Below, one piece after another: positions 1 through 5,230 of a stretch of DNA of 5,230 bases. The stretch lies in the IMG/VR virus record IMGVR_UViG_2675903433_000005. One strand, written 5' to 3'. The stretch's first letter is position 1, and each line of letters opens with the position of its first letter. The stretch comes from a virus. Its lineage: Duplodnaviria > Heunggongvirae > Uroviricota > Caudoviricetes. The notes under the pieces were generated by a model that saw only the letters and a list, made by a program, of their open reading frames with translations, did no database searches and was not told where the DNA came from. Both the position numbers and the translations under genes were made by a program.

Positions 1-118
1 CCTGCTGACAGAGTCCGGGGTTGGCATCCAGCACCTTTTCGGTGACGCCCCGTGTCGTGCCGTAGTACCGGAAACAGAGCGAATCCACGGTGTCGCCTTC
101 CAGTGCCTTCACTTTCAT
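1..118 (-). CDS. X: Tail protein X (P2 gpX-like), N-terminal 39 codons only; gene continues beyond the window start
   Basis: Minus-strand ATG at 118-116 overlaps the L stop (TGATG). Translation MKVKALEGDTVDSLCFRYYGTTRGVTEKVLDANPGLCQQ resembles the start of P2 gpX as I recall it, and X follows L in P2 gene order. Too short for the ORF track. Confidence 0.6.
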   Translation of the reverse strand, partial: MKVKALEGDTVDSLCFRYYGTTRGVTEKVLDANPGLCQQ

Positions 119-612
119 CAGCACAGCTCCGCAAACATTCGCGGTCGTCCCAGAATGTCAGAGATGGCCCAGCTCACATCGCGCCACAAATCCGATGTCT
201 GTATATCCAGTGCGTCCGCCCGGCGGTCGCCCTTGTCCGTTGTGTCCGCATCGCGGTAACGCTCCAGAATCAGGGCGCGTGTGGCGGTATAAACAGCATT
301 GCGCCAGTGCCAGAGATTGACGCTTTCTCCGTTAATTACAGGGGCCGGAACATCGGCCAGCGTCTGATAGCCAGCCGCCTGTTGTTCCTGCTGCCATGCT
401 TCCAGCTCGCGGGTAACGTGTGCTATGGCCCCGGTGGCGGTATGCAGCAGGCGGGAGGTGGTCACGCGGCCCGGCAGTCGTACCGCCAGACGCAGCTCAC
501 GCAGCACAATATCCGGCCAGAATGCACCCGCTGAAATGCGAGTGTCGCCATCATCGGTATCGGTGATGTCGTCCTCTGCGGGGCCGGGGTTAGTTCTGGC
601 AACCATACTCAT
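118..612 (-). CDS. L: Head completion/stabilisation protein (P2 gpL-like)
   Basis: ORF-track ORF 118..621 resembles P2 gpL, including the motif LADVPA..GES...ERYR....KGD..AD..D....LWRD..WA. The track starts at GTG 621-619; I prefer ATG 612-610 because AGGAG lies 8 nt upstream on the minus strand (reverse complement of 620-624). Stop TGA at 120-118. Confidence 0.85.
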   Translation of the reverse strand: MSMVARTNPGPAEDDITDTDDGDTRISAGAFWPDIVLRELRLAVRLPGRVTTSRLLHTATGAIAHVTRELEAWQQEQQAAGYQTLADVPAPVINGESVNLWHWRNAVYTATRALILERYRDADTTDKGDRRADALDIQTSDLWRDVSWAISDILGRPRMFAELC

Positions 613-713
613 GGGGTTCACTCCTGAAAAAATCGGGCGGTGGGTGCGCGGTGTAAACGGTCACGGAGTCAAACCGGAACACCGCGCACGCCGCCCGCTG
701 ACGGGGTCAGTCG

Positions 714-1514
714 TTAACCGCGCTTTGCCTTCTGCGTCGCGGTGGTTTTTCGTGTTGCAGGCTTCCGCGTTGTCTTTTTATTTTTGCTGCTTTCGTCCTG
801 CGCCTGCTGTGCGCTGGCGTCTTCTGGTTCGGCTGCGGAATCGGCTTTTTTCAGGGCGCGGGAAAGGGTTGCAATCTCGCGTTTCACACCTGCGTTCGGG
901 TTCAGGTGCATCGCTTCGCGCAGCAGCTTCAGTGATGAGGCCATGTTGTCTGCATCGGTCAGGCCACGACGGGCAAAGGCACACGCCTTGCATAATTTGG
1001 CGCGCACTTCGTCCGGAATGTCCTGGTTGGCGACAATTTCCCAAAGTGTGTCCAGTGGTTCGATAAAGGCGGATAAATCCGCGTCGGCATCCGTCCCAGC
1101 CTGCGTCAGTACCGGGTTGCAGATTTCTTCGGTCAGTACCGTGGCAGCAGTACGGCCAAAGTTATCCGGCATGATGAGGTTGTGACGGACCACATATGCA
1201 CCAATACGCAGCGCCAGCGGAAGATCGCCGCAGTCAATCGCCCACACCATCAGCGTGGCAATTACTTCGTCCTGTTGCCCGCCGTCAGCCTCCAGCGTTC
1301 CCTCAATCCAGCCGGAAAAGTCCGGCAACAACTCTTTTTTGATGGCGGCTTTCGCGCTTCTGGCCTGTATGGCCTTTAGCCTGGCCTGTGCCAGACGCAG
1401 ACGATACAGCACTTCTTCATGCGCGGTACACGCGGCGTGGTCCACACCTTCATTCGCCCGGCCTGCGCGCTGTGCCATCACGTTCTGCCAGTGTTGTTGT
1501 GCAGGAGTAATCAT
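714..1514 (-). CDS. M: Terminase small/endonuclease subunit (P2 gpM-like), copy 1
   Basis: 266-aa ORF matching P2 gpM in my recollection (N-terminal PAQ.H motif, central LP.F..W..G.LE....QD....T.M.W..D.GD region, PDEVRAKL, basic C-terminal tail). GGAGAG RBS 7 nt upstream of ATG 1514-1512. Position after N and before L agrees with P2 synteny. Confidence 0.85.
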   Translation of the reverse strand: MITPAQQHWQNVMAQRAGRANEGVDHAACTAHEEVLYRLRLAQARLKAIQARSAKAAIKKELLPDFSGWIEGTLEADGGQQDEVIATLMVWAIDCGDLPLALRIGAYVVRHNLIMPDNFGRTAATVLTEEICNPVLTQAGTDADADLSAFIEPLDTLWEIVANQDIPDEVRAKLCKACAFARRGLTDADNMASSLKLLREAMHLNPNAGVKREIATLSRALKKADSAAEPEDASAQQAQDESSKNKKTTRKPATRKTTATQKAKRG

Positions 1515-1531
1515 TTTTTCTCTCCGTTACA

Positions 1532-1550
1532 GGCGGGCATGATGCCCGCC
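1532..1550 (-). promoter_or_regulatory. GC-rich stem-loop in the spacer between the N-derived stop and M copy 1 (GGCGGGC / 5-nt loop / GCCCGCC)
   Basis: Perfect 7-bp inverted repeat read directly; no U-tract follows on the transcribed strand, so not a canonical intrinsic terminator. Confidence 0.4.
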
Positions 1551-1559
1551 GTGAGTTGA

Positions 1560-1994
1560 TTAGCTGTCGGCGAACTTCAGGCCAGTGACCATCGCGCACT
1601 TGCCATAGTCTTCAACGACATAAGCGTCATTGATGGACTGGTAGGTGGCGATGCGGTTGTATTCCGGCTCGTCTTTCATCAGGCGACGCATTGAACCTTT
1701 CTGCCAGTAAATCGACAGGTTGTTGAACGAGGTGATAAGCATCGTTGCATCCGGGAAGAACGGCGCAAGGAACACGCCCAGCCCGCCAATGGTGCGCGAT
1801 GACAGGATGAGCTGCCCGGCAGTATGCAGCAGGCGGGAGGTGGTCACGCGGCCCGGCAGTCGTACCGCCAGACGCAGCTCGCGCAACACAATATCCGGCC
1901 AGAATGCACCTGCTGAAATGCGAGTGTCGCCATCATCGGTATCGGTGATGTCGTCCTCTGCGGGTCTGGGTTCAGTTCTGGCAACCATACTCAT
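1560..1994 (-). CDS. Chimeric ORF created by the duplication junction: N-terminal ~59 residues of gpL fused in frame to the C-terminal 85 residues of major capsid protein gpN; probably a by-product, function unknown
   Basis: ORF-track ORF 1560..2003: residues MNPMSMVART..RLLHTA match the L N-terminus (2 aa differences), and residues GQLILSSRTIGG..KFADS are identical to the N C-terminus. Same RBS/ATG context as L (ATG 1994-1992). Confidence 0.6.
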   Translation of the reverse strand: MSMVARTEPRPAEDDITDTDDGDTRISAGAFWPDIVLRELRLAVRLPGRVTTSRLLHTAGQLILSSRTIGGLGVFLAPFFPDATMLITSFNNLSIYWQKGSMRRLMKDEPEYNRIATYQSINDAYVVEDYGKCAMVTGLKFADS

Positions 1995-2096
1995 GGGGTT
2001 CACTCCTGAAAAAAATCGGGCGGTGGGTGCGCGGTGTAAACGGTCACGGAGTCAAACCGGAACACCGCGCACGCCGCCCGCTGACGGGGTCAGTCG

Positions 2097-2897
2097 TTAA
2101 CCGCGCTTCGCCTTCTGCGTCGCGGTGGTTTTTCGTGTTGCAGGCTTCCGCGTTGTCTTTTTACTTTTGCTGCTTTCGTCCTGCGCCTGCTGTGCGCTGG
2201 CGTCTTCTGGTGCGGCTGCGGAATCGGCTTTTTTCAGGGCGCGGGAAAGGGTTGCAATCTCGCGTTTCACACCTGCGTTCGGGTTCAGGTGCATTGCTTC
2301 GCGCAGCAGCTTCAGTGACAGGGCCATGCTGTCCGCATCACTCAGGCCACGGCGGGCAAAGGCGCACGCCTTGCATAATTTGGCGCGTACTTCGTCCGGC
2401 ATGTCCTGGTCGGTGACAATCTTCCGGAGGGTGTCCAGTGGTTCGATAAAGGCGGACAAATCCGCGTCGGCATCCGCCCCGGCCTGCGTCAGTACCGGGT
2501 TGCAGATTTCTTCGGTCAGCACTGTGGCAGCAGTACGGCCAAAGTTATCCGGCATAATGAGGTTATGACGGACCACATACGCACCAATACGCAACGCCAG
2601 CGGAAGATCGCCGCAGTCAATCGCCCACACCATCAGCGTGGCAATCACTTCATCCTGCTGCCCGCCGTCAGCCTCCAGCGTTCCCTCAATCCAGCCGGAA
2701 AAATCCGGCAACAACTCTTTTTTGATGGCGGCTTTCGCGCTTCTGGCCTGTACGCCCTTAAGCCGGGCCTGTGCCAGACGCAGACGATACAGCACCTCTT
2801 CATGCGCGGTACGCGCGGCGTGGTCCACGCCTTCATTCGCCCGGCCTGCGCGCTGTGCCATCACGTTCTGCCAGTGTTGCTGTGCAGGAGTAATCAT
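2097..2897 (-). CDS. M: Terminase small/endonuclease subunit (P2 gpM-like), copy 2 (adjacent to N, in the ancestral position)
   Basis: 266-aa ORF, 252/266 identical to copy 1 by manual comparison; GGAGAG RBS upstream of ATG 2897-2895; immediately downstream of N as in P2. Confidence 0.85.
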   Translation of the reverse strand: MITPAQQHWQNVMAQRAGRANEGVDHAARTAHEEVLYRLRLAQARLKGVQARSAKAAIKKELLPDFSGWIEGTLEADGGQQDEVIATLMVWAIDCGDLPLALRIGAYVVRHNLIMPDNFGRTAATVLTEEICNPVLTQAGADADADLSAFIEPLDTLRKIVTDQDMPDEVRAKLCKACAFARRGLSDADSMALSLKLLREAMHLNPNAGVKREIATLSRALKKADSAAAPEDASAQQAQDESSKSKKTTRKPATRKTTATQKAKRG

Positions 2898-2914
2898 TTG
2901 TTCTCTCCGTTACT

Positions 2915-2933
2915 GGCGGGCATGATGCCCGCC
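2915..2933 (-). promoter_or_regulatory. GC-rich stem-loop in the N-M intergenic spacer (duplicate of 1532-1550)
   Basis: Same GGCGGGC-atgat-GCCCGCC inverted repeat between the N stop (2945-2943) and the M start (2897); conserved in both copies although the flanking spacer has 2 substitutions. Confidence 0.4.
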
Positions 2934-2942
2934 GTGAGTTGA

Positions 2943-3995
2943 TTAGCTGTCGGCGAACTTCAGGCCAGTGACCATCGCGCACTTGCCATAGTCTTCAACG
3001 ACATAAGCGTCATTGATGGACTGGTAGGTGGCGATGCGGTTGTATTCCGGCTCGTCTTTCATCAGGCGACGCATTGAACCTTTCTGCCAGTAAATCGACA
3101 GGTTGTTGAACGAGGTGATCAGCATCGTTGCATCCGGGAAGAACGGCGCAAGGAACACGCCCAGCCCGCCAATGGTGCGCGATGACAGGATGAGCTGCCC
3201 GGCGAGTAATTCCGCATTGGGATTCTGGCCGCTGATGCTGTTCAGCACGGGCAGACGCAGCGAGTTAAACAGGTTGCGCCCCATAATCACCACGAGGTCG
3301 TCAGCTTCCTTGTGCCATTCATCCAGCAGGGATGAACGCGCGTCCTGTACCAGTGCATCAGCGTTCGCATACTTACCCGCGTGCGCCACGGTGTTGTCCA
3401 TGTTGCGGGAGGTCAGCGTCACGTCATTCATAACGCGTTCGCTGGCGTCGGTTCTGATGTGCTCCAGCCATCCCACGTTAACGTCCTGAAGCAGCTTGTT
3501 GGTGCTGAAGTTGGACTCATCCGCGTGAGACGTGCCGTTGAAACCGATCATGATGCGGTCAAGCGCCACCTGTCGGGCAATCTGTGCGCTGATGCGGGAC
3601 TGAAAATCAGGGTGTGCCGCCCAGGCATCAAGCTGCGGATATGAAATAAACGTGTCGTAGTTCACCTGTTCGCACTGGTATTTGCGGTTTTTCAGATCAA
3701 CCACGTTATTCGGGTTACGGCGTTTTGTGCCGTCATAACTGGTATTCGTGCGCGCAATCGGCCCGGTGGTATCCAGGAGGATTTTTTCGCCTTTCTGGTC
3801 GGTCACGCCGATCACGTTAATTCTTTTTGTAAATTCGGTGCTTTCCTTTGAGGCGTTTTCAAAACGCTGCTGTACCGAGGGTTCCACGGTAAATCGCGAT
3901 ACCAGTGCGGAAACCGGGATATTGTTAAGCGACGCCTGCTGCGCCATATAGCAACCCAGCTTGTTGCGGGTAATATCTGACATCACCAGATTCAT
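2943..3995 (-). CDS. N: Major capsid protein (P2 gpN-like)
   Basis: 350-aa ORF with recognisable similarity to P2 gpN from memory (FTVEPSV.Q, GEKI, NKY.C.Q.N.D, GFNG, LQDV.VGWL, DLVVI.GR, YFPAD.MLIT, ENLSIY, YVVEDY). AAGGAG lies 10 nt upstream of ATG 3995-3993. Confidence 0.9.
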   Translation of the reverse strand: MNLVMSDITRNKLGCYMAQQASLNNIPVSALVSRFTVEPSVQQRFENASKESTEFTKRINVIGVTDQKGEKILLDTTGPIARTNTSYDGTKRRNPNNVVDLKNRKYQCEQVNYDTFISYPQLDAWAAHPDFQSRISAQIARQVALDRIMIGFNGTSHADESNFSTNKLLQDVNVGWLEHIRTDASERVMNDVTLTSRNMDNTVAHAGKYANADALVQDARSSLLDEWHKEADDLVVIMGRNLFNSLRLPVLNSISGQNPNAELLAGQLILSSRTIGGLGVFLAPFFPDATMLITSFNNLSIYWQKGSMRRLMKDEPEYNRIATYQSINDAYVVEDYGKCAMVTGLKFADS

Positions 3996-4018
3996 AAAAA
4001 ATTTGCTCCTTTGTCTTA

Positions 4019-4855
4019 TCAGAAGTCAGCCAGCTGGTCGGAGGCTGCGCCCGTTGCGGTGAAGCGGTTCTGCGGATCGCCGTCCTGCGTGCGCAGTTTT
4101 TCCTTCAGTGCTGCCAGCTCTGTGGTCAGTGACGTAATTTTCTGGCGGTCCTGCTGATGGCGGGTTTCCAGCACATTAAAACGGTCGATAATGTCGGCCT
4201 GTGACGTTGCGACGCCTTCCACCGCTTCCTGAATACGGGAAAAACTGGCGTCATCCGCTTTGCGGCCACGGCCAATAATCCCCATTACGCGGTTAAACCA
4301 CTGGGTGCCTTCTTCCTGGCGTTGTTCTGCCATTTCGATGATTTCAGACTCGATGGCTTCGGAGATAAGCGGCGCTTCACCCTGGACACTGTTGAACGTC
4401 ATTACCGCCTGACGTTGCTGTGCCGTGAATTTCAGGCGCTCAGTGCCCAGGCTCGCCGGGGTGTCGGTCATCGCCAGCCCGACCAGATAGGCGCGCCCGT
4501 TAACGGAGAACTGCGGGTGCAGTTCGATACTGGAATAGATTTTCTTGCCGTCAGCGACAAGCTGCTTCATGCGCTCGGTCGGTTCGATTTCTGCATACAG
4601 CGCAGTACGTCCGGCCAGCGGGCCTTCCGTAATATCTTCCGTACTCAGCGCGGTGACATCGCCCATTGCGGAAAATTCGCTTGACGGGCATGGCGAGAGA
4701 TAGTGCTCAACGTTCACGCGGGCAGCGTAAACATCCGGGTTGAAGTTCTCGGCGGCTTCACGCAGATGTACCGGGCTGATTTCGCGGCCATCAACAGTTG
4801 ATCCGGAGACAGCCACGCGAAACTTTTTGCGGGATGTCTTTTTTTCATTAGCCAT
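4019..4855 (-). CDS. O: Capsid scaffolding protein / prohead protease (P2 gpO-like)
   Basis: ORF-track ORF 4019..4888; I place the start at the internal ATG 4855-4853 (MANEKKTSRKKFRVAVSGSTVDGR...). This aligns with the P2 gpO N-terminus (MAKKVSKFFRIGVEGDTCDGR...) and has a GAGGGG RBS 8 nt upstream. Also shares SIEL.P.F...G..YLVGLA.TD.PASLGTE with gpO. Confidence 0.85.
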   Translation of the reverse strand: MANEKKTSRKKFRVAVSGSTVDGREISPVHLREAAENFNPDVYAARVNVEHYLSPCPSSEFSAMGDVTALSTEDITEGPLAGRTALYAEIEPTERMKQLVADGKKIYSSIELHPQFSVNGRAYLVGLAMTDTPASLGTERLKFTAQQRQAVMTFNSVQGEAPLISEAIESEIIEMAEQRQEEGTQWFNRVMGIIGRGRKADDASFSRIQEAVEGVATSQADIIDRFNVLETRHQQDRQKITSLTTELAALKEKLRTQDGDPQNRFTATGAASDQLADF

Positions 4856-5009
4856 AGTTTTTGCCCCTCTGACTGGTTCTTCAGTCATGATGGCAAAGCG
4901 TAACAGGCTGATACAAAGGGCTTTTGTTGTAAGAAAACAGTCAGAACAGGGGGTTAAGGAGAACGGTTTCGCGCGCGGGTAATCTTCCTGTAATTACTCA
5001 GGGGGAGCA
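4856..5009. promoter_or_regulatory. Divergent intergenic control region between O (leftward) and P (rightward); expected to hold the two late promoters
   Basis: 154-bp non-coding gap between divergently oriented start codons, matching the P2 P<->O arrangement. Contains imperfect dyads ACAAAgggcTTTTGT (4913-4927) and TGTTGTaagAAAACA (4925-4939). No promoter was verified. Confidence 0.5.
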
Positions 5010-5230
5010 ATGATTCAGGACGCTTTTGTGCGCCAGCGTGCGCGGCAACTTTACTGGCAGGGTTATCCGCCCGCAGAAATATCACGTCTGATGGGAATAA
5101 ACCCGAACACGATTTATGCGTGGAAAAAACGCGACCAGTGGGATGAAACGCCACCCGTGCAGCGTGTCACGCAGTCCATCGATGCGCGCCTCATCCAGCT
5201 CACTGAAAAACAGAATAAAACAGGTGGTGA
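5010..5230 (+). CDS. P: Terminase ATPase (large) subunit (P2 gpP-like), N-terminal part; continues beyond the window end
   Basis: ATG at 5010 preceded by GGGGGAG (5001-5007). Translation MIQDAFVRQRARQLYWQGYPPAEISRLMGINPNTIYAWKKRDQWDE... has an HTH-like N-terminus typical of P2-family terminase ATPase subunits, and the gene is divergent from O as in P2. Confidence 0.7.
   Translation, partial: MIQDAFVRQRARQLYWQGYPPAEISRLMGINPNTIYAWKKRDQWDETPPVQRVTQSIDARLIQLTEKQNKTGG

What the first reader, a model, noticed from the sequence alone, without database searches (positions are those of the whole stretch)
440..3203. Tandem duplication of ~1.38 kb gives two intact, diverged terminase small-subunit (M) genes inside a P2-like head operon
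Region 440-1821 repeats directly at 1822-3203. The unit runs from inside N, through the N-M spacer, all of M and the M-L spacer, to inside L. The locus therefore reads N - M - (L'-'N fusion) - M - L with both N and L intact at the edges. Both M copies are full-length 266-codon ORFs with their own RBS and differ at 14 residues. Duplicated terminase genes are not part of the canonical P2 head operon as I know it. Either this is a real duplication with two packaging-subunit alleles, or an assembly chimera of two related prophages.
Basis: seen in the sequence. Interest (0 to 1): 0.75.

Follow-up and report, generated by a model that had tools for sequence, protein, structure and literature searches.

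The report
False duplication from a scaffold gap
The apparent tandem duplication of a phage terminase gene is almost certainly an assembly artefact: pieces of two related prophages from one E. coli strain were strung together across a one-base gap (an N in the public record), so it is not a biological novelty.

Summary
The repeat is in the text as described. Window 436-1824 matches 1818-3208 at 96% identity, and there are two intact 266-codon gpM (small terminase) ORFs that differ at 14 residues.

It is not a duplication that arose and then diverged in place. The window is the whole 5,230-bp contig CYGC01000097.1 of the draft E. coli assembly GCA_001283185.1. The public record matches the window at every base except 1821. 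That is the exact joint between the two copies, and there the record has N where the window has A. So the L'-'N joint is a scaffold gap, not sequenced DNA.

Bases 1-1820 match the P88-like prophage of O26:H11 strain 11368 (one mismatch). Bases 1822-5230 match the prophage of strain TK3046 at 99.8%. The two prophage types are about 96% alike, and each carries a single M.

Both inner contig ends stop one base before a SNP that separates the two types. No joint was found in 5,426 complete E. coli genomes or 16 related phage records, and no other protein among 5.8 billion clusters spans it.

Verdict: a false duplication from scaffolding allelic contigs of co-resident prophages, about 0.93 likely. 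Interest is very low.

The parts
1..118 (-). 5' part of the tail protein X gene (39 codons), cut by the contig end. Haplotype A (O26:H11 11368 type).
   Evidence: PF05489. Bases 1-435 are 100% identical to L002. A 591-bp contig of another assembly ends at the same base (L020 = window 1-591 at 100%).
118..621 (-). gpL, the head completion protein, intact. Haplotype A. Annotated start at 612 (164 aa).
   Evidence: The protein is identical to WP_000063100.1 of strain 11368.
714..1514 (-). gpM small terminase subunit, allele A (266 codons).
   Evidence: PF05944. The exact protein is on at least 1000 contigs. Bases 627-1821 are 99.9% identical to single-copy prophages in many genomes.
1560..1820 (-). 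3' end of a gpN capsid gene (last 85 codons plus stop). This is the right end of contig A and stops one base before an A/G SNP between the two prophage types.
   Evidence: Bases 1738-1820 (83 nt) are identical to 3121-3203.
1821..1821 (.). Scaffold gap. N in the public record, written as A in the window.
1822..2003 (-). 5' end of a second gpL gene (first 59-62 codons). This is the left end of contig B. It begins one base after a G/A SNP between the two prophage types. At nucleotide level the allele is closest to that of strain SCU-101.
   Evidence: Bases 1822-1880 (59 nt) are identical to 440-498.
2097..2897 (-). gpM small terminase subunit, allele B (266 codons).
   Evidence: Bases 2010-3204 are 100% identical to strains TK3046 and YC21-F17. 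In all 9 contexts shown the gene sits in a single-copy Q-P/O-N-M-L-X arrangement.
2943..3995 (-). gpN major capsid protein, intact (350 aa). Haplotype B.
   Evidence: PF05125.
4019..4888 (-). gpO capsid scaffold/protease. Annotated as 278 aa starting at 4855. Haplotype B.
   Evidence: PF05929.
5010..5230 (+). 5' part of gpP, the large terminase (73 codons), cut by the contig end one base before a common SNP.
   Evidence: The same 73-aa stump ends contigs in 27 blocks of the collection, all with contigs under 10 kb, including two allelic contigs of one assembly (L026, L027).
436..1820 (.). Repeat copy A (L 5' part, L-M spacer, M, M-N spacer, N 3' part).
   Evidence: It is 99.93% identical to L002.
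1822..3203 (.). Repeat copy B, the allelic segment of the other prophage.
   Evidence: It is 99.7% identical to L001.

Best explanation
The window is a scaffold, not a continuous piece of DNA. The sequenced E. coli strain carries at least two P88-like (P2-family) prophages that are about 96% identical.

The short-read assembler produced allele-specific contigs:
- Contig A (window 1-1820) holds X', L, M and the 3' end of N of an O26:H11-11368-type prophage.
- Contig B (window 1822-5230) holds the 5' end of L, then M, N, O and P' of a TK3046-type prophage.

The two contigs are allelic and overlap by 1.38 kb, but at 4% divergence they were not merged. A scaffolder placed them side by side. Gap filling then extended both inner ends through sequence shared by both prophages and halted at the first base where the two prophages disagree. 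A single N was left at 1821.

Reading that N as a base creates an apparent tandem duplication with two terminase small-subunit genes and an in-frame L'::'N fusion.

Shown: the N; the two haplotypes; the position of both inner ends against SNPs; the absence of the joint elsewhere.

Inferred: which programs did this (probably Velvet with SSPACE and GapFiller), and that both prophages are intact in the genome.
For: 1. The public record of this contig has N at 1821 and is otherwise identical to the window.

2. Bases 1-435 are 100% and 436-1821 are 99.93% identical to the 11368 prophage. Bases 1818-3203 are 99.71% and 3204-5230 are 99.90% identical to the TK3046 prophage. Each part is only about 96% identical to the other prophage. 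So the 4% divergence between the copies existed before any joining.

3. Both M alleles are ordinary single-copy alleles. Allele A is on at least 1000 contigs, and allele B is on 158 contigs and listed in 340 blocks of the collection. Allele B sits in a single-copy Q-P/O-N-M-L-X arrangement in every context shown.

4. Contig A ends at 1820 after 83 nt shared by both types, and the next base in N is A in one type and G in the other. Contig B starts at 1822 before 59 nt shared by both types, and the preceding base in L is G or A. GapFiller extends one base at a time by majority vote and stops where alternatives are balanced. It closes a gap only on an overlap of at least 10 nt (PMC3446322). Here only GGC is shared.
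   - SNP density is about 6% in both genes, so both ends abutting a SNP by chance has a probability of about 0.4%.

5. Co-resident P88-like prophages are common. There are 1228 matching places in 1091 genomes. Strain E2855 carries two intact copies 1.1 Mb apart with different M alleles.

6. Both outer ends of the window are recurrent contig ends in other fragmented assemblies.

7. The joint is found nowhere else. None of 1053 prophage-bearing complete genomes has it, out of 5426 searched. All 16 related phage records are single copy. The fusion protein is a one-member, one-contig cluster.

8. A gap between haplotype-specific copies is the published signature of false heterotype duplications (PMC9516828). 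The authors of the Velvet/SSPACE/GapFiller pipeline state that these greedy tools make false joins (PMC5320598).
Against: - A scaffold link implies that some read pairs connected the two contig ends, and I could not reconstruct which mis-mapped pairs did so.
- A real tandem duplication with 96%-identical copies would also make gap filling stall at these same forks. So the N alone does not exclude a real joint hidden in the gap.
- The assembly pipeline is inferred from the ENA-type accessions and Prokka-style product names. It is not documented, and no paper mentions the assembly.
- I could not read the other contigs of the assembly to show the missing halves (N 5' part of type A, L 3' part of type B).
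   - A full-length type-B L protein has an accession in the same series (CTZ98878.1, against CTZ98307.1 and CTZ98310.1 for this contig). That is only suggestive.
Confidence: 0.93

Rival explanations
1. There is a real out-of-register joint between two different prophage genomes. It could arise by illegitimate recombination in a tandem double lysogen, by template switching during break repair with the other prophage as donor, or in a phage cross. The product is one hybrid prophage carrying N-M-L'/'N-M-L. The true joint lies inside the unresolved gap.
For: - The scaffolder linked the two ends in the orientation a tandem duplication predicts.
- Illegitimate rearrangements do occur in these prophages. 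In-frame O'::'L deletion derivatives lacking N and M are seen in several independent assemblies, and another deleted remnant is seen too.
- An extra 1.4 kb would fit the size range of related phages, 31-40 kb.
- Gap filling would stall at the same forks if the duplication were real.
Against: - No sequence crosses the joint.
- Both halves run as pure haplotypes to the contig ends, as expected for two separate contigs.
- Nothing similar was found in 5426 complete genomes, 16 related phage records or 5.8 billion protein clusters.
- Junction-specific reads would normally let a k-mer assembler or gap filler bridge a unique joint.
- The contig ends show that another related prophage is present anyway. 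That already supplies the raw material for a false join.
Confidence: 0.05
2. An in-situ tandem duplication of one prophage, followed by divergence of the two copies.
For: Only the repeat itself supports it, together with the intactness of both M ORFs.
Against: - Copy A and copy B are each 99.7-100% identical to different circulating single-copy alleles and only 96% identical to each other.
- The unique flanks also belong to two different haplotypes. Divergence after duplication cannot recreate two pre-existing natural alleles or change the flanks.
- Differences are strongly uneven. The N 3' part has 1 in about 290 nt, while M has 43 in 801 nt.
- There is an N at the joint.
Confidence: 0.005

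Closest known systems
False heterotype duplication in genome assemblies (Ko et al. 2022, Genome Biol 23:205, PMC9516828)
   Same: Two diverged alleles of one region are placed next to each other in one scaffold. They are separated by an assembly gap, each carries haplotype-specific variants, and they create false extra and fused gene models.
   Different: The 'haplotypes' here are two co-resident prophages in a haploid bacterium, not the two chromosomes of a diploid. The gap is a single N. The read-depth and read-pair criteria could not be tested.
Escherichia phage P88 and relatives (Xuanwuvirus, P2-like Peduoviridae), head-gene cluster Q-P / O-N-M-L-X
   Same: There is 95-98% nucleotide identity over the whole window once the repeat is counted once. 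The gene order and Pfam families are the same.
   Different: All 16 phage records and every prophage context inspected carry one M between N and L.
Genuine tandem duplications in phage P2, selected in the laboratory and mapped by electron microscopy in the 1970s (recalled from memory, not checked with the tools)
   Same: They would give the same head-to-tail repeat of a genome segment with a novel joint.
   Different: Genuine duplications arise within one genome, so the copies start out identical and the joint is continuous DNA. Here the copies are two natural alleles and the joint is a gap.

Membership tests
P2-family (P88-like) head morphogenesis and packaging gene cluster | Divergent P | O-N-M-L-X gene order with the matching protein families (Terminase_5/6, GPO, Phage_cap_P2, Phage_term_smal, GPL, tail_X) | tested here: met
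   The same order is seen in annotated relatives.
P2-family (P88-like) head morphogenesis and packaging gene cluster | High nucleotide identity to named members | tested here: met
   95-98% identity to 16 records, including phage P88 and Xuanwuvirus P884B11.
Genuine tandem duplication | Uninterrupted sequence across the novel joint | tested here: not met
   Position 1821 is N in the source record. Only 3 nt (GGC) are shared by the two flanks.
Genuine tandem duplication | The two copies derive from one another, so they are each other's closest relatives, and both flanks belong to one genome | tested here: not met
   Each copy and its flank match a different natural prophage at 99.7-100%. The copies match each other at 96%.
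Genuine tandem duplication | Spanning reads, outward-facing read pairs, and single-copy depth on each copy | not testable with these tools
   No access to the reads of GCA_001283185.1.
False heterotype duplication (assembly artefact; criteria of PMC9516828) | An assembly gap between the duplicated copies | tested here: met
   A single N lies exactly between the copies. Criteria read.
False heterotype duplication (assembly artefact; criteria of PMC9516828) | The copies carry haplotype-specific sequence | tested here: met
   There are 54 differences, and each set matches a known natural allele.
False heterotype duplication (assembly artefact; criteria of PMC9516828) | Half-level read depth and discordant read pairs | not testable with these tools
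   No reads available.
Terminase small subunit gpM (PF05944) | A full-length match to the family for both M ORFs | tested here: met
   Precomputed Pfam hits for both 266-aa products. Both are identical to widely seen natural alleles.

The most novel reading that the evidence does not exclude
The gap hides a real joint. In that case this isolate carries a hybrid P88-like prophage made by out-of-register recombination between two co-resident prophages. It would have two different, intact terminase small-subunit alleles and an L-N fusion gene expressed from one late operon.
Probability: 0.05. Interest if true: 0.3.

Novelty: not a real feature. Interest (0 to 1): 0.03.

Why it matters
It matters mainly as a warning.
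- A one-base N, silently written as A in the window, turns a scaffold join into a clean-looking tandem duplication with an in-frame fusion ORF.
- The ACN codon lets the same artefact enter protein databases as a unique 'major capsid protein' (WP_053904695.1, UniRef100_UPI0006A48359).
- Gene-content and pangenome analyses that count two terminase small-subunit genes, or a novel capsid variant, in this strain would be wrong.
- If the duplication were real, it would be a one-off rearrangement of modest interest for how P2-like phages tolerate two terS alleles.

Tried and rejected
1. In-situ duplication followed by divergence. Rejected because each copy and its flank match a different natural haplotype.

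2. A real microhomology-mediated joint (GGCA). I weighed this at length, including template-switch repair and a deletion in a tandem double lysogen. My reasoning was that no k-mer assembler or gap filler can invent an N-free joint with only 4 shared bases. The premise was false. The fourth base is the N-to-A substitution, and only GGC is shared.

3. Exact-pattern scans for the joint in GTDB representative genomes, IMG/VR and JGI metagenomes found nothing. They contained the placeholder A, so they tested a string that may never have existed. The tolerant searches (BLAST, protein search) are the valid negatives.

4. An exact look-up of the 147-aa GTG-start version of the fusion ORF found nothing. 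The annotated version is 144 aa.

5. A k = 51 signature. The left end of the window lies exactly 50 nt from the first type-specific SNP. This fits a Velvet node end, but it rests on one observation with one free parameter. The right end instead stops directly before a SNP. I kept this only as a remark.

6. Accession-number reasoning to place a full-length type-B L protein (CTZ98878.1) in the same assembly. It is suggestive only. Accession numbers step by 3 between neighbouring genes, and the L' fragment is the SCU-101-type allele at nucleotide level.

8. A literature search for the assembly accession found nothing.
Full report
**What is in the window.**
- All genes lie on the minus strand. In transcription order they are O (4888..4019), N (3995..2943), M (2897..2097), a 147-codon ORF (2003..1560), M again (1514..714), L (621..118) and the start of X. 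The start of P runs the other way at 5010-5230.
- The 147-codon ORF starts like L and ends like N.
- A self-comparison gives one direct repeat, 436-1824 against 1818-3208, at 95.97% identity with 54 mismatches and two one-base gaps.
- The two M ORFs are both 266 codons, differ at 14 residues (43 nucleotides), and both have a GGAG ribosome-binding site.

**Where it comes from.**
- The window is 95-98% identical to 16 phage records of the P88 group (Xuanwuvirus, P2-like). All of them span about 3.85 kb for this region, so they hold one M.
- A protein search with the fusion ORF returned one full-length match: a 144-aa NCBI protein (CTZ98307.1 / WP_053904695.1) in a one-member cluster seen on one contig of 5,230 bp.
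- That contig is CYGC01000097.1 of the draft E. coli assembly GCA_001283185.1. The window is the whole contig.

**The two copies are two different prophages.**
- Copy A with its flank (1-1821) has a single mismatch to the prophage of O26:H11 strain 11368.
- Copy B with its flank (1818-5230) is 99.8% identical to the prophage of strain TK3046.
- Each half is only about 96% identical to the other prophage.
- In 5,426 complete E. coli genomes, copy A has 309 records at 99% or better. Copy B has exact matches. In every record listed the match lies under one gpM and one N gene.
- The exact allele-B M protein is on 158 contigs. In every context shown it sits in the ordinary Q-P/O-N-M-L-X order.
- So the 4% difference between the copies existed before they were joined. 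An in-situ duplication followed by divergence is excluded.

**The joint is a gap.**
- While checking whether the data store could hold ambiguous bases, I compared the window with the copy of the same contig fetched from the public collection. They agree at 5,229 of 5,230 positions.
- The only difference is 1821, which is N in the record and A in the window.
- Position 1821 is the junction base: ...GAGCTGCCCGGC N GTATGCAGCAGG...
- To its left the sequence is N. To its right it is L.
- The contig is therefore a scaffold of two contigs, 1-1820 and 1822-5230, with an unresolved gap.
- On the coding strand the gap falls in the third position of an ACN codon, which is threonine whatever the base. 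That is why the annotation pipelines produced a clean fusion protein.

**Why the contigs end where they do.**
- Contig A ends after 83 nt (1738-1820) that are identical in both prophage types. The next base in N is A in the 11368 type and G in the TK3046 type.
- Contig B begins before 59 nt (1822-1880) that are identical in both types. The preceding base in L is G in one type and A in the other.
- GapFiller, by its authors' description, extends gap edges one nucleotide at a time from 30-mers. It applies a majority vote at ambiguous positions and stops in repeats where alternatives have equal ratio. It declares a gap closed only on an overlap of at least 10 nt (PMC3446322).
- Both stops, and the failure to close (only GGC is shared), are what that procedure predicts when reads of two prophages are pooled.
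- With about 6% SNP density in L and N, two arbitrary breakpoints would both abut a SNP in about 0.4% of cases.
- The pipeline that combines Velvet, SSPACE and GapFiller reports 4-10 misassemblies per test genome. Its authors note that the greedy tools make false joins (PMC5320598).
- That this assembly came from that pipeline is my inference from the ENA-type accessions and Prokka-style product names. No paper mentions the assembly.

**The strain carries several related prophages.**
- Both outer ends of the window are typical repeat-induced contig ends.
- A 591-bp contig of another assembly is 100% identical to window 1-591 and ends at the same base.
- The 73-codon stump of P that ends the window also ends contigs in 27 blocks of the collection, all with contigs under 10 kb. 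They include two allelic M'-N-O-P' contigs of a single assembly.
- The window stops one base before a common A/C polymorphism.
- Complete genomes show that co-resident P88-like prophages are common. There are 1228 matching places in 1091 genomes. Strain E2855 has two intact copies 1.1 Mb apart with different M alleles.
- In such drafts the allelic pieces normally stand alone. Here two of them were chained.

**The joint is absent elsewhere.**
- A 241-nt query centred on the joint matched 1,053 genomes, but only as separate N and L halves. No place covered 80% of it.
- No other protein spans the joint among 5.8 billion clusters.
- My exact-pattern scans of three collections were also negative. 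They contained the placeholder A and carry little weight.

**What remains open.**
- A scaffold link means some read pairs tied the two ends together, and I could not reconstruct which mis-mapped pairs did this.
- A real tandem duplication with 96%-identical copies would stall gap filling at the same forks. A real joint hidden in the gap is therefore not formally excluded.
- Illegitimate rearrangements do occur in these prophages. In-frame O'::'L deletions lacking N and M recur in several assemblies, and another deleted remnant is seen.
- Against a real joint:
  - false joins are common in such pipelines;
  - both halves are pure, different haplotypes;
  - another related prophage is present anyway;
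  - there is no supporting sequence at all.
- I put the real-joint reading at about 5% and the scaffold artefact at about 93%.

**Comparison with what is known.**
- The structure meets the two testable criteria of a false heterotype duplication as defined for eukaryotic assemblies: a gap between the copies, and haplotype-specific sequence in each (PMC9516828). The depth and read-pair criteria need the reads.
- It fails two defining features of a genuine tandem duplication: a continuous joint, and copies derived from each other.
- The genes themselves are ordinary members of the P88-like head cluster.

**Verdict.** This is not a real feature, and its interest is very low. The useful by-products are a flagged artefactual RefSeq/UniRef protein and the observation that an N rendered as A can manufacture a convincing duplication.

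Noticed in passing
window 1821 (L023 1821, L003 3410): The window shows A where the public record of the same contig has N. This is the only difference in 5,230 bases, and it sits on the feature under study. Ambiguous bases seem to have been replaced by A when the window was prepared.
   Followed up: yes
window 1560-1994 (-): The RefSeq/UniRef protein WP_053904695.1 / UPI0006A48359 ('P2 family phage major capsid protein', 144 aa) is translated across the N gap (ACN = Thr). It is a database artefact: one member on one contig.
   Followed up: yes
L013 8001-8558, L014 8001-8558, L015 8001-8558: P88-like prophages in which O is fused in frame to L (185 aa, PF05929 + PF05926), with N and M deleted. 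They occur in NCBI and Logan assemblies of different samples, so this is a real inherited deletion that leaves a defective prophage. L013 also has a broken S/J region.
   Followed up: partly
L016 6579-10181, L017 390-2570: Another decayed P88-like prophage. It has a truncated large terminase (414 aa), a 145-aa N remnant, an intact M, and an L::I fusion (264 aa, PF05926 + PF09684) that skips the lysis and baseplate genes.
   Followed up: no
window 5010-5230; loci L021-L030: Contigs of many unrelated draft and Logan assemblies end at the same codon 73 of gpP, just before an A/C SNP. This may be a practical marker of E. coli strains carrying two or more P88-like prophages.
   Followed up: partly
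L002 2157-4034; L013 1260-4543; L001 12283-13195: The prophages carry variable cargo genes. The O26 11368 prophage has a 1.9-kb DUF6645 gene between the lysis genes and R. Others have an AAA ATPase plus an S8 peptidase pair, and ParM/StbA-like plus Plasmid_stab_B genes, beside the portal gene.
   Followed up: no
window 1886 and 1683: Two bases match none of the natural alleles I compared. The A at 1886 is G in all 16 compared loci. The G at 1683 is A in the 11368 prophage (L002), though the window's own copy B also has G at the equivalent position. They could be strain variants or consensus errors near the contig ends.
   Followed up: no
window 1822-1926 versus 1927-5230: Contig B is itself a mosaic relative to complete genomes. 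Its L 5' part is closest to the SCU-101 allele (1 mismatch in the 313 nt compared, 1818-2130). From about 1927 onward it is TK3046-type. This could be natural phage mosaicism or a phase switch within a shared stretch.
   Followed up: partly
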